The notes: generated by a model not told the origin, from the sequence alone. A stretch of 64,000 nucleotides of DNA from a virus (IMGVR_UViG_2684622670_000009:20476-84475), one strand, 5' to 3'. Counted from the stretch's first letter, positions 8,099 through 59,423 are shown. Numbers and translations are program-made.

Positions 8099-11000
8099 AT
8101 GACTCATCAAACACACACCATTGCTGAATCCAATAACTTTATCGTCCTTGATAAGTACATCAAAGCTGAGCAAACAAGCGACAGCTACCAGAGCGAATCG
8201 GACCTGGAACGTGAACTGATTCAGGACCTGCGGAATCAGGGTTATGAATTTATTTCCGTAAAATCACAGTCGGCAATGCTGTCCAATGTTCGGGAACAGC
8301 TTCAGAGCCTCAATGGTGTGATGTTTAATGACAGCGAGTGGCGGCGCTTCACGGAGCAGTATCTGGACAACCCGAGTGATGGTATTCTGGATAAAACCCG
8401 TAAAATCCATATCGACTATATTTGCGACTTTATTTTTGATGACGAGCGACTTGAGAACATCTATTTGATAGATAAAAAGAATCTCATGCGCAATAAGGTG
8501 CAGATTATCCAGCAGTTTGAACAGACGGGTTCTCACGCTAACCGTTATGACGTCACGATCCTGGTTAATGGCTTACCACTGGTGCAAATCGAACTGAAAA
8601 AACGCGGCGTGGCGATTCGTGAGGCTTTCAACCAGATACATCGTTACAGTAAAGAGAGTTTTAACAGCGAAAATTCCCTGTTTAAGTATCTGCAGCTGTT
8701 CGTCATTTCCAACGGCACTGATACCCGTTATTTTGCCAACACAACAAAGCGCGATAAAAACAGTTTTGACTTCACCATGAACTGGGCTAAATCAGACAAT
8801 ACACTGATTAAAGACCTCAAAGACTTTACCGCTACCTTTTTCCAGAAACATACTCTGCTTAATGTTCTGGTGAACTACAGCGTTTTTGACAGCAGTCAGA
8901 CGCTACTGGTAATGCGACCGTACCAGATTGCTGCCACCGAGCGCATTCTGTGGAAAATTAAGAGCTCCTTTACAGCGAAGAACTGGTCAAAACCGGAAAG
9001 CGGTGGGTATATCTGGCACACCACGGGTTCCGGTAAAACCCTGACCAGCTTTAAAGCCGCGCGTCTGGCAACAGAACTGGACTTTATTGATAAAGTTTTC
9101 TTTGTGGTCGACAGGAAAGACCTCGATTACCAGACCATGAAGGAATATCAGCGTTTTTCGCCAGACAGCGTCAACGGCTCGGAAAATACCGCAGGCCTTA
9201 AACGAAATCTGGATAAGGACGATAACAAAATTATCGTCACTACTATTCAGAAACTCAATAACCTGATGAAAGCAGAAAGCGACCTGCCTGTATATAATCA
9301 GCAAGTGGTGTTTATATTTGATGAATGCCACCGCAGCCAGTTTGGAGAAGCTCAGAAAAACCTGAAGAAGAAATTCAAACGCTATTATCAGTTTGGTTTT
9401 ACCGGCACCCCTATTTTCCCGGAAAACGCCTTAGGCTCAGAAACAACCGCCAGCGTATTTGGTCGTGAATTGCATTCGTATGTAATTACCGATGCGATTC
9501 GTGACGAAAAAGTGCTCAAATTCAAGGTGGACTACAACGATGTGCGGCCACAGTTTAAGTCTTTAGAGACAGAAACTGACGAGAAAAAACTGAGTGCGGC
9601 TGAAAATCAGCAGGCGTTTCTTCATCCCATGCGTATTCAGGAAATCACGCAATATATTCTGAATAATTTCCGCCAGAAAACCCATCGTACCTTCCCTGGC
9701 TCAAAAGGTTTTAATGCTATGTTGGCAGTGAGCAGCGTGGATGCCGCGAAAGCCTATTATGCGACGTTTAAACGGTTACAAGAAGAAGCCGCTAATAAAT
9801 CGGCTACCTATAAACCGCTGCGTATTGCGACAATCTTCTCCTTTGCCGCCAATGAAGAACAAAATGCCATTGGTGAAATTTCCGATGAAACTTTTGATAC
9901 CAGCGCAATGGACAGCAGTGCTAAAGAGTTTCTGGACGCTGCAATTCGTGAATATAACAGCCATTTTAAAACTAACTTTAGCACCGACAGTAACGGTTTT
10001 CAGAACTACTATCGTGATTTAGCCCAGCGGGTTAAAAATCAGGATATCGATCTGCTAATTGTCGTGGGGATGTTTTTAACCGGCTTCGATGCTCCAACAT
10101 TGAACACGCTATTCGTCGATAAAAACTTGCGTTTTCACGGCCTGATGCAGGCATTTTCCCGCACCAACCGTATTTATGATGCAACTAAAACCTTCGGTAA
10201 TATCGTCACTTTTCGGGATCTGGAACGCTCAACTATTGATGCCATAACGCTGTTTGGTGACAAAAACACCAAAAATGTGGTGTTAGAAAAGAGTTATACA
10301 GAGTATATGGAAGGCTTTACTGATGCTGCTACTGGTGAAGCTAAACGCGGCTTCATGACAGTAGTTTCAGAACTGGAACAACGGTTCCCTGACCCTACCA
10401 GTATTGAAAGTGAAAAAGAGAAGAAAGACTTCGTTAAACTGTTTGGCGAATACCTGCGTGCCGAGAACATCCTGCAAAACTATGATGAATTTGCCACGCT
10501 AAAAGCCCTGCAACAAATCGATCTTAGCGATCCTGTTGCGGTAGAAAAATTCAAAGCAGAACATTATGTGGATGATGAAAAGTTCGCTGAATTGCAAACA
10601 ATTCGTCTCCCTGCTGATCGCAAGATTCAGGATTATCGTTCTGCCTATAACGATATTCGCGACTGGCAGCGCCGTGAGAAAGAAGCTGAGAAAAAAGAGA
10701 AATCAACCACTGACTGGGATGACGTAGTTTTTGAGGTCGATTTGCTGAAGTCTCAGGAAATAAACCTGGATTATATCCTTGGACTGATTTTCGAACACAA
10801 CAGACAAAATAAAGGCAAGGGCGAAATGATCGAAGAGGTCAAACGCTTAATTCGTTCAAGCCTAGGGAACCGTGCTAAAGAGGGCCTGGTGGTCGATTTT
10901 ATTCAGCAAACGAACCTGGATGATTTACCGGACAAAGCCAGCATCATTGACGCATTCTTTACGTTTGCTCAACGCGAACAGCAACGTGAAGCAGAAGCAT

Positions 11001-49679: not shown

Positions 49680-49729
49680 AGTTACGGCCTCATTCGTAGG
49701 TTTAACAACCTGCGCCCCGCTGCTAAACG

Positions 49730-49806
49730 GGTGGCAGGACGTGACGGGGTTAGCAGACTGGCACGAATGAAACCAGCAGGCCGAAGCCTCCCCATCACGC
49801 CCCACC
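49730..49806 (-). ncRNA. c4: c4 antisense repressor RNA (immI)
   Basis: 10-bp closing stem CGTGATGGGG/CCCCGTCACG and an AGGC-TTCG-GCCT hairpin. The loops carry CATTCGT and CTGCTAA. These are complementary to the direct repeats GTTTAGCAG...ACGAATG found both upstream (~49872-49900) and downstream (~49685-49730). Confidence 0.6.
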
Positions 49807-49993
49807 ATAATTCGGGCGTAACGTGGTTTTACGGACACAAAAATACCGCAATATCGGATATCTGCGGTTGTCCGCATTCGTATTCAGGCTGCTAAACCCG
49901 GTCGCAGAATTTGCTACGACGGCGGAACTATAAGCCTGAACGATTAAAAGGTCAATATGATGCGAAAAGATAGCATTCGCGACTTAAAAATAC

Positions 49994-50010
49994 AAATTTA
50001 TTAGAGCATT
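49994..50010 (-). promoter_or_regulatory. C1 operator (Op51 position) of the immI operon
   Basis: Minus strand AATGCTCTAATAAATTT (16/17). Confidence 0.7.
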
Positions 50011-50092
50011 AATTGTATGATAAATACACAAATGGATCTAATAACCTCTTTTTTTAAAGGCGAAAATATGTACCCTAAATGGGTTATCCGGT

Positions 50093-51430
50093 GCGCCTTA
50101 TATCCCCGTCCTTCAGGGCGGGGATATAAGGCGCGGTTTTCCACCTAACTGTTTTTGTTTAAAATAGTGGGATGAAACGACTACAAGCATTTAAATTCCA
50201 GTTAAGACCAGATGGTCAACAGGAGCGTCAAATGAGGCGCTTTGCCGGTGCTTGTCGTTTCGTTTTCAACCGTGCTCTGGCGCTTCAGAATGAGAATCAT
50301 GAGGCCGGTAAAAAATACATCCCTTACACGAAAATGGCTTCCTGGCTGGTTGAATGGAAAAATGCTACTGAAACGCAATGGCTTAAAGATTCGCCATCAC
50401 AGTCATTGCAGCAGTCACTGAAAGACCTTGAGCGGGCTTACAAAAACTTTTTCCAGAATCGGGCTGCTTTTCCCCGATTCAAAAAGCGGGGACAGAATGA
50501 TGCATTCCGCTACCCGCAGGGCGTTAAGCTCGATCAGGAAAACAGCCGTATTTTTCTGCCGAAACTTGGCTGGATGCGCTACCGGAATAGCCGTCAGGTC
50601 ACGGGTGTTGTGAAAAATGTCACTGTCAGCCAGTCCTGCGGTAAGTGGTACATCAGTATTCAGACAGAAAGAGAGGTATCCGCTCCTGTTCACCCTTCTG
50701 CATCAATGGTCGGACTGGATGCTGGTGTGGCTAAACTCGCCACGCTGTCAGATGGCACAGTCTTTGAACCTGTAAATAGTTTTCAGAAAAACCAGAAGAA
50801 GCTGGCGAGACTTCAGCGACAGTTAAGCCGCAAGGTCAAATTCAGCAACAACTGGCAGAAGCAGAAACGCAAAATACAGCGACTGCATTTTCGTATCGCA
50901 AATATCCGCAGAGACTACCTTCATAAAGTCACAACGATCATCAGCAAAAACCACGCAATGATTGTCATTGAGGATTTGAAGGTTAAAAACATGGCAAAGT
51001 CAGCAGCGGGTACGGTCAGCCAGCCGGGGCGCAATGTCTGGACAAAATCAGGTTTAAACCGTTCGATACTGGATCAGGGCTGGTATGAAATGCGCCGCCA
51101 GCTTGAGTATAAGCAGCTCTGGCATGGCGGTCAGGTACTGGCAGTGCCGCCAGCGTACACAAGCCAGCGTTGCGCGTGCTGTGGTCATACCGCGAAAGAA
51201 AATCGCCTGTCACAAAGTAAATTCAGATGCCAGGTATGTGGATATACAGCGAACGCCGATGTAAATGGCGCTCGTAACATTTTAGCGGCGGGGCACGCCG
51301 TTCTTGCCTGTGGAGGGATGGTGCAGTCAGGCCGCCCGTTGAAGCAGGAACCAACCGAAATGATTCAGGCGATAGCCTGAACGTAGCAGGAATCCACGCC
51401 CGTCAGGGTGCGGAGGATGTCAAAAGGCAG
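50093..51430 (+). mobile_element. IS200/IS605-family element remnant carrying only tnpB (ends approximate)
   Basis: Perfect 15-bp stem hairpin GCGCCTTATATCCCC/GGGGATATAAGGCGC (50093-50134) upstream of tnpB. An imperfect hairpin (CACGCCC-GTCA-GGGTGCG) lies about 30 nt after the stop. No tnpA is present. Confidence 0.6.
50172..51380 (+). CDS. tnpB: TnpB (RuvC-like RNA-guided nuclease, OrfB zinc ribbon)
   Basis: 402 aa. [13 protein letters not shown]...GLDAGV (RuvC-I), [10 protein letters not shown] (RuvC-II), CACCGH...[18 protein letters not shown] (Zn ribbon plus RuvC-III). Confidence 0.9.
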
Positions 51431-51441
51431 GTGAGGTTATA

Positions 51442-51933
51442 ATGAGAAAACTATTACTACCGTTATTATTTATGGCTGGGACTGTTAATGCAGCATCAAG
51501 TGTAAAGGAGATTTGTACCGATTATACGAAATACCTTGGGCACGTTTACGGCTTTGCTGTCAGTCAAGACGAATCCATGCGCAAGAAGTTACTGTCAGAT
51601 ATGAAACGCCTTAAACTTTCTGAAGCGATGGTGCAGCAAGAACTGTATAAAGTCGCAACCAACGAAAATGCTAAATATCAATATTCTCGCCTATTAAACC
51701 CCGATGCAAACGAGATTAATCGAAACTCTTTCGATTATATGGTAAAGGCATGCGAAACCGCTCCTGATTTTGCTATTCCTAGCTGGGGCGTGCTGGTGGC
51801 GAGCAATGCCGTTAATAAAGAAGATATTGGAAGAAATGGCATTGACTCAATCAGAAATGCCCCTGGAATGCGCCATCAAAACGTTCAGGGTACGCTTGAA
51901 GAGCGGGCCAGGGGACCGGGTGTAGCTCCATAA
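51442..51933 (+). CDS. Secreted 163-aa protein with a Sit-like C-terminal motif
   Basis: Signal peptide MRKLLLPLLFMAGTVNAA. The C-terminus GIDSIRNAPGMRHQNVQGTLEERARGPG resembles two Sit segments. Confidence 0.6.
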   Translation: MRKLLLPLLFMAGTVNAASSVKEICTDYTKYLGHVYGFAVSQDESMRKKLLSDMKRLKLSEAMVQQELYKVATNENAKYQYSRLLNPDANEINRNSFDYMVKACETAPDFAIPSWGVLVASNAVNKEDIGRNGIDSIRNAPGMRHQNVQGTLEERARGPGVAP

Positions 51934-52021: not shown

Positions 52022-52528
52022 ATGAAATTATATAAGTCATTGTATATCTTTTTATTAATGTCCTCTTTTCTGCCATTATCAGCAATGGCAGGTTCTATCG
52101 TTTGGACGGTAGGAGGTGAGCAAGGGTGGAGAGAAATCTCTGCAACCAATGACGATGGTTACACAATTAACTTTTCTTGTGATGCTGGAGCAAGGGAAGG
52201 TTCCGAAGATCATATCGCTGGAAGAAATTTGTATGTAAGCGGAGGAAAAGAGAATGTCGATTTTTCTACACGCGACACAATCTCACGTAAAGCAGATGTA
52301 ATTACTTTAATTGTTGGTCAGGATAGTTTTAATATTGGCACGCAAAACACTGCTCCAAATCGTAGGGAATGGTATTCTTTTTGGAAGTCAGCGTCAGCCA
52401 CAAAAGAAAAAAACATGGATGTATATATCGGATCGCATCGAATTACATCATTCTCTCTTGATGGAATTTCAAGTATTTACAAGGAAGCTAAAAATGATGG
52501 ATGTTTAAAGCAAGATGACGGTGAATAA
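52022..52528 (+). CDS. Secreted 168-aa protein (unknown)
   Basis: Signal peptide MKLYKSLYIFLLMSSFLPLSAMA. AT-rich codons; two Cys residues. Confidence 0.55.
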   Translation: MKLYKSLYIFLLMSSFLPLSAMAGSIVWTVGGEQGWREISATNDDGYTINFSCDAGAREGSEDHIAGRNLYVSGGKENVDFSTRDTISRKADVITLIVGQDSFNIGTQNTAPNRREWYSFWKSASATKEKNMDVYIGSHRITSFSLDGISSIYKEAKNDGCLKQDDGE

Positions 52529-53699
52529 AGTGAAGGATATTAAAAAACTTGCACTTGGCTCAGTAAGCGATCTCTATAATAGAGATTCAAATATTACTTG
52601 GCGTGATAACTTAAGTAAAATCAAAATGCCAGGATATACATCGGCAAGTGATTTATTAAAATCAGAATATGCTTCTAATAATTTGGTTAGACAGTTGGCA
52701 CAACTGCAAAAAAACGCAATCATTCCATCGTATAAAGAACATATGGCAATCTTGCACAGACAGTTAAGAATATCGCGCCATGCTCAAGAACAACTTGCAA
52801 AGTTGAGTACACAAGCCTTAATTAGTGATTCTATTCTAAAACAGTTTTCGCATAGACCGAATTTGGCAGAAATAGGCAACGAGTATCGTAAACATATTGA
52901 TATTTTACAGAAACAGGCTCTGGCTTTTTTCCCGCGTGATGCCAATAAATACATTCAAATGCTAAGGAAACAGGCAGAAATTGCTATGCCGTTACGAAAC
53001 CAGTTCGAGATGCTTAATAAGCAAGCTGGTTTAAATAACATGCAGGCGATGTTTAATGAATTAAGACAACATGTAAATTATAAGACAGATTTAAATAATG
53101 GAATAGCACTATTATTAAAACAATATACTCTGGCAAAAGGTTCTCCATTGCATCAAGTAATGGAGCAAGGTCTTTCATCTTTTGCACAGGCTTATGCTGA
53201 AGGTGCTACTGAAACATCACACACGAAAAGTAATGTTCAAAACAAAGGATTAAATAAATATAGCTCAAAGTTTGTTGATTCATTTAAAGAGCTTCCTTAT
53301 CCACTGCAATGGTTACTAATGGTTATATTTTCTCAGGTTGTGTTTGGTGCTTTTATTGATTACGGAAAAGAGAAAACCTTGCTGGGAATACACAAGGCAG
53401 AATCATATGTTATATCGCTGTTTGAGGATAAACCAATATCAAAACAACAAATAATTAAAGAAAACAAAGAAATTAGTTGGGATGATCTCAATGGTTTTCG
53501 TTTTATAACTGGTGAGAACGTAAGATTACACGTCAGTCCTTCTATAAATAGTGAGGTTATTGAATGCATTGGCAAAAATACTATAGTGGCTGTTTTAGAT
53601 AAAAAAGATCGCCAATGGCTTTTCGTGCAGGTTAAATCAGGGGACGAGTTTATTACTGGATGGATTACACGAACATACACAAAGCCTCTTAAGGCTTGA
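52515..53699 (+). CDS. 394-aa membrane-anchored protein with helical Q/K-rich repeats and a C-terminal SH3b domain
   Basis: Overlaps the previous stop by 14 nt. TM segment LQWLLMVIFSQVVFGAFIDYG. C-terminus VRLHVSPSINSEVIECIGKNTIVAVLDKKDRQWLFVQVKSGDEFITGWI is typical of bacterial SH3. Confidence 0.6.
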   Translation: MTVNKVKDIKKLALGSVSDLYNRDSNITWRDNLSKIKMPGYTSASDLLKSEYASNNLVRQLAQLQKNAIIPSYKEHMAILHRQLRISRHAQEQLAKLSTQALISDSILKQFSHRPNLAEIGNEYRKHIDILQKQALAFFPRDANKYIQMLRKQAEIAMPLRNQFEMLNKQAGLNNMQAMFNELRQHVNYKTDLNNGIALLLKQYTLAKGSPLHQVMEQGLSSFAQAYAEGATETSHTKSNVQNKGLNKYSSKFVDSFKELPYPLQWLLMVIFSQVVFGAFIDYGKEKTLLGIHKAESYVISLFEDKPISKQQIIKENKEISWDDLNGFRFITGENVRLHVSPSINSEVIECIGKNTIVAVLDKKDRQWLFVQVKSGDEFITGWITRTYTKPLKA

Positions 53700-56018: not shown

Positions 56019-59000
56019 ATGGAAAGAAAAAACGCCAACATTGACGATGTTATAAGGACAGTTGAAACCGCCAGCGCAAAAGAGCTGGAAGAGCTTGCAG
56101 GTATCCGGGAAGCTGTTGAAGATTTGAAAGGGGGGCGCGTTGCAACTGTTGATCCTGTCTCTCGCAGTGTGTCGGCATTAAATCGCACAATCGAAAATTC
56201 CCGGCCTGACTTTGTGGCCAAAGCGCCATCCGTAGACCCTATTGTTGACGCAATGAAACGGCTTAATTTAGGGGACGTTTCTCGTGTAGTTCAGGAAGAT
56301 GTTGCTCAACAGGAACAGCAGGCCAAATCAACCACACCAAAGGGTAAAAAACGACGCAGGAAGGCTATACCAGAGGATGTAAAGGCACAACGGACCGAAG
56401 CAGCCGAACACGCTCGCGAAATGTTCGGTCAAAAAGGCGGTGCGCAAAAAAGCCAAAACCAACGCGATGCGCGTGGTCGTTTTATTGGAAAGTCAGGGAG
56501 TAAGTCCGCAGCGGAAGATGCCCGTGCTGAACGTGCTGAAAAGGCCAGGCGCAAAGAGGATGATGAGCGTCTAAATGCTGAATCAGGTTTATTAAAAAAA
56601 CTGTCAAAAGTAGCTGAAGGCATAGGTAACCCTTCAGAGACTCGTGCCGTCGATGCGTTAGGTTATGCCGTTGCTGGTCCATTGTGGGCAGCAGGGAAGG
56701 AGCTTGGCGGGATATCAAAAGAAGTTGGTGGATCGCTTAATGGTGCCAGAAAGTCTATTGCCGATGTGATTCGTGGCAATGACGATAACAGCCGTAGAAA
56801 AGGTTTTTTTAGGCGTAAATCGCAAAATAGTGCCGATGTCGTTCAGGTTAACACCCAAAAACGGACGGTTCAGGAACTTCAGGAGCAGACCAGCGAAATT
56901 AAAGAGGGCAATGACAAGATTCTCAGCGCCCTTGATCAAATAGCCAAAAACACCGGGAAAAAGAAGGGCGGCTTGCTGTCCAAACTATTTAGCCTGTTAG
57001 GGAAGGGGGCCGGTGGCGTCGCGTCGTTGTTAATGGGGCGTGGCATGCTGAAAAAAGCTGGAGCACTCGCTTTTGGCGCTCTGGGGGCAAAGAAACTTGT
57101 AGGAATGCTACGCGGTGGTGGCAAGAAAACTCTCACCCATGAAGGCGGAGATTTGGCTGCCCGGGCAGCAGGTAAACTTGGATTAAAGGTAGTTGGTAAA
57201 GGGGCGTTACGCGCAATTCCCCTAGTCGGCACAGTGGCTGGAGGTATTTATGATGCGGTAACCGGTTGGAATGATACAGAAGCGCAACGTCGAGCGTTTG
57301 GGCTTAAATCAGGACAAGATCCATCATTCCAGCAAAAAGCCGCTTATACGTTAGCCAATGTTCTTGATTTGGGAGGACTGGTATCTGGTATTAGCAATGT
57401 CATTGGTAGCGTTCTCAAATCACTTGGATTTGAGGATATCGGCAATATGTTGCAATCATTTTCGACGGAAAGTATTGCACAGGCCATTGATAGTGGAATT
57501 ACCAATTTAGAAACATATATTTCTAACCTTGGTGATACTATATCCACGACATTTAGTGATTATACCGCAAAGATTGGTGATGCTATTTCAGGATGGTTCA
57601 GTGACACAACAAAGAACTTGAACGAAAAATTAGACGCCATCAAAAACTTCTTTACTGTCGATAACCTGAAACAGGTTTTTAGTGATGCAATTGATAGTGC
57701 AATTGATTTCATTAAGAACCCAAGGAAACACATTAAAGAGGCTGGCAGTAATCTATGGAGTGCCGCAAAAGAGCTTTCAGGTGAGATTGCAGATGCTGCT
57801 GTTCAGAGCACTCCTGTGGCCTGGGTTGCATCAAAGCTAGTCAATAAAGCGGATGCGAAAGAGGTTACACCTGAATTAAAAATACCTGCTAAAGAACGTC
57901 AGGAGGGCAATGCTCCTAAGACTGAATATATCCCTAAAAAGGCTAATATTGTCACTCGTGTTGTAAATGCATCCCTGGATACGGCGAAAGATAGCAATAA
58001 AACAGTTAAAGAAACTGCCAATCAGATAATCAATGCAAATGCTGTAGAAACGGGCAATAGCGCGTTGCAGAAAATTGATAAAGCTATTGGTCAAAATAGC
58101 TCGTCATCATCCTCGCTTAATACCACTGGCACCAGGAATGACATTCAGAAAGCTGCGGATACCTACAATAATGGCAACTTGGATGTAAAAGTCGGAAGTC
58201 TTGGAGCTGAAGGTAAGGCAAATCTCGATAAGTTGGCTCCGTATTTTGCTGAACTAGAGAATAAATATGGCCTTCCTGAAGGTACTCTTTACGCGATCGC
58301 TGCAACTGAATCTGGTGGTGATCCTAACGCAAAATCTACGCTTACAAGATCACCAAATGGAAAGCTAAGTGGTGGCGCTCTCGGAATGTTCCAGTTTACG
58401 AGCGTTGCTCGTGAGGAAACTGGATTATCCCGGGAAGATTCTTTTAATCCGGAAAAATCGGCAGAAGCTGCGGCTCTTCTCATGAGCAAGTATCTGAAGC
58501 AAGCCAATGGAGACTTAAACGAGGCCATCACTGCATATAACGCTGGGTTTGGCACTATCAATAAGTGGAAAAAAGGCACAGGTGACTTATCGAAAGAAAA
58601 CCGTGAGTACGCGATCAAGGTCAATACTCATCGTGCTCGCTATTTAGGTGGTGAAATCTATACACCTGGAGCAGGAGCACAGGGTGGGGCGCAATATGGA
58701 GTGAGGGGACCACTGCCTGATAACGCTGTTATCGATCAGTCTACTGGCCTAGCGTTTACCCCTGGTGATAGCCCGTTTGAGAAAGGCGGTCTGGTAGACA
58801 AAATCGGCAATGCTGTTGGCGTTAACGATCTGGTCAACAAATTCATGAATGGCCGGGGTATGCGTCGGGAAGTCGTTCAGGGAACGCTCGAAGAACGTGC
58901 ACGAGGGAAGGGGACCGCAACAGCAGCTGGCAATGTGTATGTTGATACTCCGATGCCAGTTGAAGAGGCGCGTCCGGTGGCCAGCAACTCAAGTTACTTT

Positions 59001-59423
59001 GACCAGCTCGGCGCACAAATGGGGATTGATGGGCTATTCGATAAACTCCGCAATGCGCCGGGGATGCGGAAAAGTAATGCGCCTGAACCAGCCACTACGT
59101 CCCAGGTGACGACTGCCGCCAACGATTTGCAGCAACCAACTGGTCGTATGCAGATAGATGGGCAGGTTATTAGTGACCTTGGCGGCTCCGGTGCCAAGCC
59201 GACAATGCAGTTGGCTGATAATACCGTTTCACTTGATGGTGAAACGAAGCGGCTGTTTGCGCAGATGACCTCATTGCTTGCCAGGATTGAAGAGCACACT
59301 AAAGACTCGGCGAAAGGCCAGGGAACTGTCGTAAAGGTCAGCACGCCTCAACCGGGCGTTATGCGCACGGTGCCACTGTCAATTGATGATCCGTTGATGA
59401 ATGACTACGCGAGAGTTGATTGA
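56019..59423 (+). CDS. sit: Tape-measure-like protein with a lytic transglycosylase domain (Sit)
   Basis: 1134 aa. SLT motif AIAATESGGDPNAKS...GALGMFQF. Long helical and Gly-rich regions. Confidence 0.85.
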   Translation: MERKNANIDDVIRTVETASAKELEELAGIREAVEDLKGGRVATVDPVSRSVSALNRTIENSRPDFVAKAPSVDPIVDAMKRLNLGDVSRVVQEDVAQQEQQAKSTTPKGKKRRRKAIPEDVKAQRTEAAEHAREMFGQKGGAQKSQNQRDARGRFIGKSGSKSAAEDARAERAEKARRKEDDERLNAESGLLKKLSKVAEGIGNPSETRAVDALGYAVAGPLWAAGKELGGISKEVGGSLNGARKSIADVIRGNDDNSRRKGFFRRKSQNSADVVQVNTQKRTVQELQEQTSEIKEGNDKILSALDQIAKNTGKKKGGLLSKLFSLLGKGAGGVASLLMGRGMLKKAGALAFGALGAKKLVGMLRGGGKKTLTHEGGDLAARAAGKLGLKVVGKGALRAIPLVGTVAGGIYDAVTGWNDTEAQRRAFGLKSGQDPSFQQKAAYTLANVLDLGGLVSGISNVIGSVLKSLGFEDIGNMLQSFSTESIAQAIDSGITNLETYISNLGDTISTTFSDYTAKIGDAISGWFSDTTKNLNEKLDAIKNFFTVDNLKQVFSDAIDSAIDFIKNPRKHIKEAGSNLWSAAKELSGEIADAAVQSTPVAWVASKLVNKADAKEVTPELKIPAKERQEGNAPKTEYIPKKANIVTRVVNASLDTAKDSNKTVKETANQIINANAVETGNSALQKIDKAIGQNSSSSSSLNTTGTRNDIQKAADTYNNGNLDVKVGSLGAEGKANLDKLAPYFAELENKYGLPEGTLYAIAATESGGDPNAKSTLTRSPNGKLSGGALGMFQFTSVAREETGLSREDSFNPEKSAEAAALLMSKYLKQANGDLNEAITAYNAGFGTINKWKKGTGDLSKENREYAIKVNTHRARYLGGEIYTPGAGAQGGAQYGVRGPLPDNAVIDQSTGLAFTPGDSPFEKGGLVDKIGNAVGVNDLVNKFMNGRGMRREVVQGTLEERARGKGTATAAGNVYVDTPMPVEEARPVASNSSYFDQLGAQMGIDGLFDKLRNAPGMRKSNAPEPATTSQVTTAANDLQQPTGRMQIDGQVISDLGGSGAKPTMQLADNTVSLDGETKRLFAQMTSLLARIEEHTKDSAKGQGTVVKVSTPQPGVMRTVPLSIDDPLMNDYARVD

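What the first reader, a model, noticed from the sequence alone, without database searches (positions are those of the whole stretch)
51841..51933. Secreted protein ends with a copy of a motif from the tape-measure/transglycosylase Sit
The last ~30 aa of the 163-aa secreted protein read GIDSIRNAPGMRHQNVQGTLEERARGPG. Sit, in the same window, contains NGRGMRREVVQGTLEERARGKG (nt ~58850-58915) and GIDGLFDKLRNAPGMRKSN (nt ~59030-59085). The small protein thus fuses the front of one Sit repeat to the back of the other. Sit is thought to be the injected tape-measure/transglycosylase, so a periplasmic protein displaying its motif could act as a decoy that blocks genome entry of related phages (a Sim-like function). 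Alternatively the similarity is only a recombination scar.
Basis: seen in the sequence. Interest (0 to 1): 0.6.

Follow-up and report, generated by a model that had tools for sequence, protein, structure and literature searches.

The report
Secreted SimA protein copies tape-measure motif
A small exported protein in the superimmunity locus of this P1-like phage-plasmid carries a conserved copy of a short peptide motif from the phage's own tape-measure/injection protein Sit, which suggests, but does not show, that it blocks entry of related phages by mimicry.

Summary
ORF 51442-51933 is the long form of P1 "SimA"; P1's own 52-aa simA is a truncated remnant. It has a Sec-type signal peptide, a confidently folded all-helical domain with no detectable structural relatives, and a flexible tail, GIDSIRNAPGMRHQNVQGTLEERARGPG. 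That tail is homologous to a motif just after the lytic transglycosylase domain of Sit (profile-profile E 1.5e-10; shuffle z = 10).

It is not a recombination scar. Ten of 15 identical residues use different codons. The motif is also the best-conserved part of the SimA family: 70% identity against 40% for the domain in the most distant member.

It is not a chimera of two Sit repeats either. It aligns colinearly with Sit repeat 1. Repeat 2 is a partial duplicate inside a P1-subgroup-specific insertion.

Both families occur only in P1/D6-like elements. SimA always sits in the variable sim locus, next to a second secreted protein.

The decoy or exclusion function is plausible but untested. I found no significant SimA-Sit covariation and no partner. 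In this window the allele ends right after the motif, and an IS609-like element separates it from its predicted promoter.

The parts
51442..51933 (+). simA-long, 163-aa allele ('simA domain protein', PHROG 3933), ending 3 residues after the motif
   Evidence: ORF list. phrog_3933 E 1.9e-113 over 1-162 of a 213-position profile. 96.8% nt identity to the 215-aa gene of phage Ro157c2YLVW up to nt 51921, then divergence. N-terminal 41 aa are 93% identical to P1 SimA residues 10-50.
51442..51492 (+). Predicted Sec signal peptide, MRKLLLPLLFMAGTVNA | ASS
   Evidence: Read from the sequence: a basic n-region, a 12-residue hydrophobic core and V-N-A before the predicted cleavage site. N16, A17 and S19 are invariant in the family. 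There is no Cys at +1, so it is not a lipoprotein. No signal-peptide predictor was available.
51493..51816 (+). All-helical globular domain (aa 18-125) with two invariant Cys (25, 104)
51838..51921 (+). Sit-like linear motif GIDSIRNAPGMRHQNVQGTLEERARGPG (aa 133-160) in a flexible tail
   Evidence: pLDDT is 40-60.
56019..59423 (+). sit: tape-measure protein with an SLT lytic transglycosylase domain (aa 742-861, nt 58242-58601)
   Evidence: Pfam SLT E 6e-26. phrog_2533 full length. Synteny with P1 sit. Its role as tape measure is taken from PMC9024508 and PMC12810830.
58818..58913 (+). Sit motif copy 1, GVNDLVNKFMNGRGMRREVVQGTLEERARGKG (aa 934-965); present in every P1/D6-like Sit examined
   Evidence: Alignments of Sit C-termini. 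G-M-R, V-Q-G-T-L, R-A and G-x-G are invariant. pLDDT is below 50.
59022..59078 (+). Sit motif copy 2 (front half only), GIDGLFDKLRNAPGMRKSN (aa 1002-1020), inside a ~43-aa insertion specific to P1-subgroup Sit
   Evidence: It scores about equally against copy 1 (z 8.1) and against SimA (z 8.9).
50088..51423 (+). IS609-like (IS200/IS605 family, tnpB only) insertion 18 bp upstream of the simA ATG. It separates the gene from the predicted PsimA promoter homologue (about 50016-50042) and the C1 operator (about 49994-50010).
   Evidence: P1 homology is interrupted exactly between L001 positions 9000 and 9001. TnpB domains are present. The target is TTAT and the right end is TCAA, matching the IS609 sites reported in PMC6906374. 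The promoter region is aligned to P1.
52022..52528 (+). Second secreted protein of the cassette (168 aa, YfjT-like, PHROG 3429). A homologue follows simA-long in every lineage examined.
   Evidence: phrog_3429 E 4.6e-70. 48% identical to the PF27224:YfjT-labelled neighbour of SimA in L003. The same neighbour is present in L003-L008.
52515..53699 (+). Third cassette gene: 394-aa protein with one predicted TM segment (about aa 263-285) and a C-terminal SH3_3-like region. GC is 35%.
   Evidence: SH3_3 E 1.6e-5, just below the Pfam cutoff. phrog_7086. The three-gene cassette occurs in 35 PLSDB plasmids at >=80% coverage.

Best explanation
The ORF is the long form of SimA, a soluble periplasmic protein encoded in the lysogeny-side superimmunity (sim) locus of P1/D6-like phage-plasmids. 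It consists of a lineage-specific helical domain followed by a flexible tail. The tail displays a short linear motif copied long ago from the region just after the transglycosylase domain of Sit, the phage's own tape-measure protein.

Inferred mechanism: when a related phage contracts its tail, the C-terminal part of Sit (SLT domain plus motif) enters the periplasm. Resident SimA presents the same motif in the same compartment. It would then either compete with incoming Sit for the partner the motif binds, or engage Sit's own motif-binding site. Either way the step between wall penetration and DNA entry would stall. This would be superinfection exclusion by mimicry of the injection protein.

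Shown here: homology of the motif, purifying selection on it, its position in flexible regions of both proteins, export features, and the locus. Inferred: export itself, expression in the lysogen, any exclusion phenotype, and the identity of the partner.
For: (1) The shared segment is homologous and significant.
(2) The peptide is maintained by selection. Ten of 15 identical residues use different codons in the window, with similar ratios in four other lineages.
(3) In the most distant family member, P0047, the motif is 70% identical, against 40% for the N-domain and 2/12 for the linker.
(4) The same columns are constrained in both families: entropy correlation rho = 0.59, p = 2.6e-4, and the same consensus residue in 20 of 33 columns.
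(5) Sit copy 1 is invariant at G-M-R, V-Q-G-T-L, R-A and G-x-G in all P1/D6-like Sit proteins, and recognisable in a 38%-identical homologue.
(6) Both copies lie in low-confidence, probably flexible regions next to folded domains, as expected for a partner-binding linear motif.
(7) Export features: a signal peptide with an invariant cleavage region, two invariant Cys, no lipobox and no TM segment.
(8) Position: the gene is divergent from c4/icd/ant and upstream of the late promoter LPsit. This is exactly where P1 carries simABC, and it is allelic with simB-simC: no locus among 77 had both.
[quoted passage not shown] Exclusion proteins that bind tape-measure proteins are known, for example T4 Imm (bioRxiv 10.64898/2026.03.06.709160).
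(10) SimA and the Sit C-terminal region have the same narrow distribution, P1-like elements only.
Against: No experiment links SimA-long to exclusion. From my own knowledge, the P1 sim phenotype maps to simC, and P1's simA is only a remnant, so P1 needs no SimA. SimC has no similarity to SimA or Sit.

About half of the family keeps only the front half of the motif (N-x-x-G-M-R-x-Q) and then continues into unrelated Cys-containing tails.

Matching between SimA and the Sit of the same element is only a trend (permutation p = 0.06-0.07). An apparent A/S covariation disappeared across 68 loci.

No binding partner was identified, and the structure models are uninformative for the motif.

In this window an IS609-like element separates the gene from its predicted promoter, so expression here is uncertain.
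Confidence: 0.4

Rival explanations
1. The motif is a shared envelope-targeting or anchoring module. It would bind a cell-wall or periplasmic component and simply localise both proteins. SimA's real activity would then reside in its helical domain and be unrelated to competition with Sit, for example a lysogenic-conversion function, or inhibition of a different phage or of a host enzyme.
For: The motif is flexible and modular. It is followed by at least three unrelated kinds of tail in different SimA proteins. The N-domain is itself well conserved and confidently folded. SimA is always paired with another secreted protein, YfjT-like, which suggests a multi-component periplasmic function. No SimA-Sit covariation was found.
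Against: The motif occurs in no other protein family among 5.8 billion sequences searched with a motif profile. A general envelope-binding module would be expected to be more widespread. It is restricted to the injection protein and to a protein of the superimmunity locus of the same phages.
Confidence: 0.25
2. SimA acts like T4 Spackle, as a direct inhibitor of the Sit transglycosylase. The tail would mimic the segment that normally follows the SLT domain and dock SimA onto incoming Sit, so that the helical domain blocks the muralytic site and the wall is not opened.
For: SimA is a small, exported, all-helical protein. In Sit the motif begins about 70 residues after the end of the SLT domain. 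P1 relies on the Sit SLT domain as its tail-associated muralytic activity (PMC9024508).
Confidence: 0.15
3. The similarity is a functionless by-product of mosaic recombination in a hypervariable locus. The 163-aa allele in this window would be a decaying gene: C-terminally truncated and cut off from its promoter by an IS.
For: The sim region is one of eight hypervariable regions of P1-like plasmids (PMC9603915). Cassette breakpoints fall inside simA, after aa ~41 in P1 and immediately after the motif in this window. An IS609-like element lies 18 bp upstream. GC of the motif-coding part (0.50) resembles the phage backbone rather than the rest of the cassette (0.35-0.42).
Against: Synonymous sites have diverged while the peptide is kept. 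The motif is the best-conserved part across lineages that are 40-60% identical elsewhere. The 163-aa allele is a stable, recurrent form: a cluster of 153 sequences, 13 loci including this window (12 IMG/VR loci), most without the IS, and 35 plasmids carrying the whole cassette.
Confidence: 0.1

Closest known systems
P1 SimA / simABC superimmunity operon (Punavirus P1)
   Same: Same locus and orientation, between the ImmI region (c4-icd-ant) and pmgC-tub-pmgB-sit. The first 41 residues, covering the signal peptide and the start of the domain, are 93% identical to P1 SimA residues 10-50.
   Different: P1 SimA is a 52-aa remnant. Homology stops at nt 51581 of the window and is replaced by simB-simC. 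P1 therefore lacks the helical domain and the Sit-like motif. SimC, the protein credited with the Sim phenotype, is unrelated in sequence.
T4 Imm (and HK97 gp15, TP-J34 Ltp): exclusion proteins that act on the tape-measure protein during DNA entry
   Same: These are phage-encoded, envelope-located proteins that block genome entry after adsorption. T4 Imm binds the tape-measure protein.
   Different: From my own knowledge, those proteins are membrane-anchored (inner-membrane proteins or a lipoprotein), and none is reported to copy a segment of the tape-measure protein. SimA-long has no TM segment or lipobox and carries a homologous copy of a Sit motif. No binding has been shown for SimA.
T4 Spackle (Sp): periplasmic inhibitor of the gp5 tail lysozyme
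   Same: A small, signal-peptide-bearing, helical periplasmic protein of a myophage. Its target would be the tail-borne muralytic protein.
   Different: No sequence or fold similarity was detected. Spackle does not mimic its target. Inhibition of the Sit SLT domain is untested.
Sit / SLT-containing tape-measure proteins (PHROG 2533)
   Same: Shares a 30-56 residue homologous segment, consensus [DE]xFxNxxGMRxxxVxGTLxERAxGxG(TxxxMGN).
   Different: The ORF has no SLT domain, no long helical ruler region and no conserved Sit C-terminus. It is not a tape-measure fragment, because its remaining 125 residues are unrelated to Sit.

Membership tests
SimA family (PHROG 3933; 'simA domain protein') | Full-length profile match to the family | tested here: met
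   phrog_3933 E 1.9e-113, residues 1-162 on profile positions 1-162 of 213. 96-98% identity to clusters P0001 and P0003.
SimA family (PHROG 3933; 'simA domain protein') | Position in the sim locus, divergent from c4-icd-ant and upstream of LPsit/pmgC | tested here: met
   Synteny with P1 and Ro157c2YLVW. C4 RNA lies at 49727-49812 on the minus strand. The same position is seen in six D6-like or other loci.
SimA family (PHROG 3933; 'simA domain protein') | N-terminal Sec signal peptide with conserved cleavage region | tested here: inconclusive
   The sequence features are classical and N16/A17/S19 are invariant. No signal-peptide predictor or export assay was available.
SimA family (PHROG 3933; 'simA domain protein') | Complete C-terminal tail (family profile is 213 long) | tested here: not met
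   This allele ends at residue 163, three residues after the motif. Homology to the 215-aa form stops at nt 51921. It is a recurrent short allele, not a unique truncation.
P1 Sim (SimC) superinfection-exclusion protein | Sequence homology to SimC | tested here: not met
   No alignment between the ORF and SimC. tblastn with SimC found nothing in the window.
P1 Sim (SimC) superinfection-exclusion protein | Blocks infection after adsorption and before DNA reaches the cytoplasm | not testable with these tools
   Needs plating-efficiency and DNA-entry assays.
Tape-measure-targeting exclusion proteins (T4 Imm, HK97 gp15, TP-J34 Ltp) | Membrane anchor (TM helix or lipobox) | tested here: not met
   No hydropathy window above threshold, and no Cys at the predicted cleavage site.
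Tape-measure-targeting exclusion proteins (T4 Imm, HK97 gp15, TP-J34 Ltp) | Physical binding to the tape-measure protein or its entry partner | not testable with these tools
   Only single-chain structure prediction was available.
T4 Spackle-like periplasmic lysozyme inhibitors | Fold or sequence similarity to Spackle or other solved inhibitors | tested here: not met
Sit / SLT tape-measure proteins (PHROG 2533) | SLT domain and long helical ruler region | tested here: not met
   Pfam finds no SLT in the ORF. Similarity to Sit is confined to residues ~120-162.
Known anti-phage defence proteins (PADLOC-DB) | Match to any model | tested here: not met
   No hits at E <= 0.1 for SimA (163 or 215 aa), the two cassette neighbours, SimB or SimC.
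PTP-like phytase (PF14566) | Score above the gathering cutoff and a CX5R catalytic loop | tested here: not met
   26.0 bits against a cutoff of 27. The only candidate Cys (C104, CETAPDF) is not followed by Arg at +6.

The most novel reading that the evidence does not exclude
SimA-long proteins are periplasmic decoys. They display a linear motif copied from the phage's own tape-measure/transglycosylase and so block genome entry of P1/D6-like phages, which would be superinfection exclusion by molecular mimicry of the injection machinery. The extra front-half motif copy in P1-subgroup Sit, and the cassette turnover at the sim locus (SimA-long or SimB/SimC), would then be traces of an arms race over one step of DNA entry. 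The motif would also mark the still unknown host or phage partner that P1 needs to cross the periplasm.
Probability: 0.3. Interest if true: 0.75.

Novelty: new variant of a known kind. Interest (0 to 1): 0.55.

Why it matters
How contractile-tailed phages such as P1 get their DNA across the periplasm and inner membrane is poorly understood. Sit is unresolved in the P1 cryo-EM structures, and no entry partner is known to me. The mechanism of P1 superimmunity is also not established in any paper I could search.

This finding supplies a 25-30 residue motif that is conserved both in the injected tape-measure protein and in an exported protein of the superimmunity locus. That gives a concrete handle: a peptide for pull-downs and mutagenesis, and a simple exclusion assay.

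If the mimicry model holds, it would add a new principle, a decoy copy of the injection protein, to the known ways prophages block DNA entry. It would also help explain why the sim locus is one of the hypervariable regions of P1-like plasmids, which are common carriers of resistance genes in Enterobacteriaceae.

Independently of function, the analysis shows that the P1 reference gene simA is a 5' remnant of a longer, widespread gene.

Tried and rejected
(1) Recombination scar or recent gene conversion. Rejected for the window, where codons differ at 10 of 15 identical residues.

(2) Chimera of two Sit repeats. Rejected in favour of one colinear homologous segment.

(3) A/S covariation between SimA (NAPGMR or NSPGMR) and Sit repeat 2, suggested by the window and Ro157c2. 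It disappeared across 68 IMG/VR loci.

(4) Matching of the variable core NxxGMRxx between SimA and the Sit of the same element. Only a trend, permutation p = 0.06-0.07.

(5) Donor of Sit repeat 2. It scores equally against Sit repeat 1 and against SimA (z 8.1 and 8.9), so this is undecidable.

(6) Motif packing against the SLT domain. AlphaFold2 gives pLDDT below 50 for everything after the domain, so there is no support.

(8) The motif in other proteins. A motif profile against 5.8 billion proteins returned only Sit and SimA fragments. The SimA profile against 1.84 billion representatives returned 11 clusters, all SimA. The Sit C-terminus is found only in P1-like phages.

(9) Family libraries. 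PADLOC and NCBIfam gave no meaningful hits. The Pfam PTP-like phytase hit is below threshold and lacks the catalytic loop.

(10) Other sim-locus proteins (SimB, SimC, the YfjT-like proteins, the 394-aa protein) were searched for virion-protein fragments. None was found.

(11) Lobocka et al. 2004 (P1 genome paper) could not be retrieved. The papers that were searchable describe neither the SimA-Sit similarity nor a function for SimA.

(12) The genome-contig scan added no new lineages. The contigs carrying the distant member P0047 are too short to include its sit gene.

Full report
**What the window is.** The region is a P1-like phage-plasmid (Punavirus). Window 48425-50087 matches the P1 ImmI region (ant, icd, c4) at 92% identity. 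Window 53800 onward matches LPsit-pmgC-tub-pmgB-sit at 97%. The C4 antisense RNA and its a1b1 targets are found at 49727-49812 and 49881-49933 on the minus strand. Between these two blocks P1 carries simA-simB-simC, the superimmunity operon. This region is documented as one of the hypervariable, low-GC regions of P1-like plasmids (PMC9603915 and PMC6906374).

**Checking the observation.** ORF 51442-51933 encodes 163 aa that end GIDSIRNAPGMRHQNVQGTLEERARGPGVAP.
- Sit (56019-59423, 1134 aa, SLT domain at aa 742-861) contains GVNDLVNKFMNGRGMRREVVQGTLEERARGKG at aa 934-965 and GIDGLFDKLRNAPGMRKSN at aa 1002-1020.
- The match is far beyond chance. The local alignment score is 91, against 37.8 +/- 5.3 for 1000 shuffles (z = 10). 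The expected chance occurrence of the exact 10-mer is about 3e-9.
- PHROG profile hits are reciprocal, at E 4.8e-5 and 2.7e-4.
- Comparing a 17-sequence SimA profile with an 8-sequence Sit C-terminal profile gives hhalign probability 96.9% and E 1.5e-10 over 56 columns.

**What the ORF is.** The first 41 residues are 93% identical to residues 10-50 of P1 SimA.
- At the DNA level, homology to P1 stops at nt 51581. Homology to phage Ro157c2YLVW continues at 96.8% up to nt 51921, where that phage's gene runs on to 215 aa.
- P1's 52-aa simA is therefore a 5' remnant of a longer gene (PHROG 3933, profile length 213, labelled 'simA domain protein' in NCBI records).
- The family is very narrow. A full HMMER scan of 1.84 billion representative proteins found only 11 clusters, all SimA.
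- All members with context sit at the same position in P1-like or D6-like plasmid prophages of Escherichia, Salmonella, Klebsiella and Cronobacter.
- Three allelic cassettes occupy the locus and were never combined among the 77 sequences examined (76 loci plus the window): a simA remnant with simB and simC (P1 type); the 215-aa SimA with a YfjT-like secreted protein; and the 163-aa SimA with a 168-aa YfjT-like protein and a 394-aa TM/SH3 protein, which is the window's type. The last cassette is present in 35 PLSDB plasmids.

**Anatomy.** The N-terminus (MRKLLLPLLFMAGTVNA|ASS) has the features of a Sec signal peptide. Its cleavage-site residues are invariant in the family, and there is no lipobox or TM segment.
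- AlphaFold2 models residues ~19-125 as a helical globule with pLDDT above 90. It has two invariant cysteines.
- The motif-bearing tail has pLDDT 40-60.
- In Sit, everything after the SLT domain, including the motif, is also modelled with pLDDT below 50.
- Both copies therefore look like linear motifs in flexible regions attached to folded domains.

**Relationship of the copies.** An alignment of motif segments from seven Sit and eight SimA proteins is colinear. Its consensus is [DE]xFxNxxGMRxxxVxGTLxERAxGxG(TxxxMGN).
- D6-like SimA proteins align to Sit copy 1 without gaps. One example is DEFLNSPGMRHQKVEGTLAERAYGKGTSTAMGNL against Sit NKFMNSRGMRHEVVQGTLAERAYGKGTTTAMGNV.
- In the 215-aa E. coli form the similarity continues past ...RGPG into TNSPMGNL (tblastn E 1e-9 against a D6-like Sit).
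- Sit copy 1 is present in every Sit examined. Copy 2 is a front-half duplicate inside a ~43-aa insertion found only in P1-subgroup Sit.
Its front half also resembles copy 2 because copy 2 is itself a copy.
- Whether copy 2 came from copy 1 or from simA cannot be decided (z 8.1 against 8.9).

**Selection.** Of the 15 residues that are identical between the window's SimA and Sit motifs and have more than one possible codon, 10 use different codons. Four other lineages give 7/13 to 11/15. This excludes a recent recombination scar.
- Within the SimA family the motif is the best-conserved part. Against the most distant member (P0047) identity is 16/23 in the motif, 43/108 in the domain and 2/12 in the linker.
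- Per-column variability is correlated between the two families (Spearman 0.59, p = 2.6e-4), and the consensus residue is the same in 20 of 33 columns. The two copies are therefore under similar constraints.
- About half of the SimA proteins keep only the front half (NxxGMRxQ) and then continue into unrelated Cys-containing tails. The front half is the universal unit, and it is also the unit duplicated in Sit copy 2.

**Tests that did not support more.**
- An A/S covariation suggested by two genomes vanished across 68 loci.
- Matching of the variable core between SimA and the Sit of the same element is only a trend (p = 0.06-0.07).
- One lineage (L003) has nearly identical codons in the front half of both genes, which hints at local gene conversion. 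This is a single case.
- No other protein family carries the motif.
- SimB, SimC and the other cassette proteins contain no virion-protein fragments.
- PADLOC and NCBIfam gave nothing. The Pfam PTP-like phytase hit is below threshold and lacks the catalytic loop.

**Mechanism.**
- Established facts:
  - Sit is the P1 tape-measure protein and carries the tail's muralytic domain. It is unresolved in P1 cryo-EM maps (PMC9024508 and PMC12810830).
  - Sim is credited with preventing DNA injection by superinfecting phage (cited in PMC8546580).
  - In T4 the exclusion protein Imm binds the tape-measure protein.
- Best-supported reading: SimA-long is an exported protein of the lysogen. It presents a copy of a Sit linear motif in the compartment where incoming Sit emerges. 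It interferes with whatever that motif binds, and so blocks entry of P1-like phages. I rate this at about 0.4.
- A Spackle-like variant, with direct docking on Sit's SLT region, is a sub-case (0.15).
- A non-competitive role for the motif as a localisation module (0.25) and a functionless mosaic (0.1) are the rivals. The last is hard to reconcile with the selection evidence.
- None of these can be settled without experiments. The assays are listed under next steps.

**Specifics of this window.** The allele stops three residues after the motif, which places the motif at the extreme C-terminus. This short allele is recurrent: a cluster of 153 sequences and 12 IMG/VR loci.
- A 1336-bp IS609-like element carrying only tnpB is inserted after a TTAT, 18 bp upstream of the ATG, and ends in TCAA. 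These are the cleavage sites reported for IS609.
- The insertion leaves the ribosome-binding site intact. It separates the gene from the homologue of the predicted PsimA promoter and from the C1 operator Oc4.
- Transcription here would need read-through from tnpB, which has the same orientation. No terminator-like site was found on the plus strand between them.

**Verdict.** The decoy interpretation is plausible and testable but unproven. It would be a new variant of a known kind, namely exclusion proteins that act on tape-measure-mediated DNA entry.

Noticed in passing
window 50088-51423: IS609-like element (IS200/IS605 family, tnpB only, 1336 bp) inserted after TTAT and ending in TCAA, 18 bp upstream of the simA start. 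The same insertion end is seen upstream of simA in two other IMG/VR loci, one of them P1-type, so this TTAT may be a recurrent target.
   Followed up: partly
L001 (P1) 8992-9150, compared with window 51442-51581: The reference P1 gene simA (52 aa) is a 5' remnant of a 163-250 aa gene. The annotated upstream start (MSYKAGEVIM...) is probably not the real one: the window's IS splits those codons, and D6-like homologues start at the MKKL/MRKL methionine, which has a GGTGAGG ribosome-binding site.
   Followed up: yes
window 52022-52528: A 168-aa protein with a signal-peptide-like N-terminus (YfjT-like, PHROG 3429). A homologue follows simA-long in every P1-like and D6-like lineage examined, so the two form a conserved two-gene module of exported proteins. 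Function unknown.
   Followed up: partly
window 52515-53699: A 394-aa protein with one predicted TM segment (about aa 263-285) and a C-terminal bacterial SH3-like region (just below the Pfam cutoff). GC is 35%. It overlaps the preceding gene by 14 nt and is specific to the 163-aa-SimA cassette. It could be another envelope-acting exclusion or defence factor.
   Followed up: no
window 58941-59090 (Sit aa 975-1024): P1-subgroup Sit proteins carry a ~43-aa insertion absent from D6-like Sit. It contains a second, front-half-only copy of the motif. Upstream of it, VASN matches SimA residues 119-122, so the insertion could derive either from Sit copy 1 or from simA.
   Followed up: partly
L003 10001-10669 (simA) and 13897-17151 (sit): In this Salmonella element the front half of the motif uses almost identical codons in simA and sit (AAC TCG CGA AGC/GGC ATG CGG), unlike all other lineages. 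This may be local gene conversion between the two genes.
   Followed up: no
window 49994-50042: The C1 operator Oc4 is identical to P1. The homologue of the predicted PsimA -35 hexamer differs (TATGAT against TTTAAT), and the -10 (TCTAAT) is conserved.
   Followed up: partly
proteins P0002, P0004, P0007, P0008, P0017, P0021: Several database 'SimA' proteins of 194-205 aa are frameshifted readings of the same DNA, matching the window's +1-frame ORF 51770-51925. All come from Logan assemblies, so they are probably assembly errors or pseudogenes rather than alternative products.
   Followed up: no
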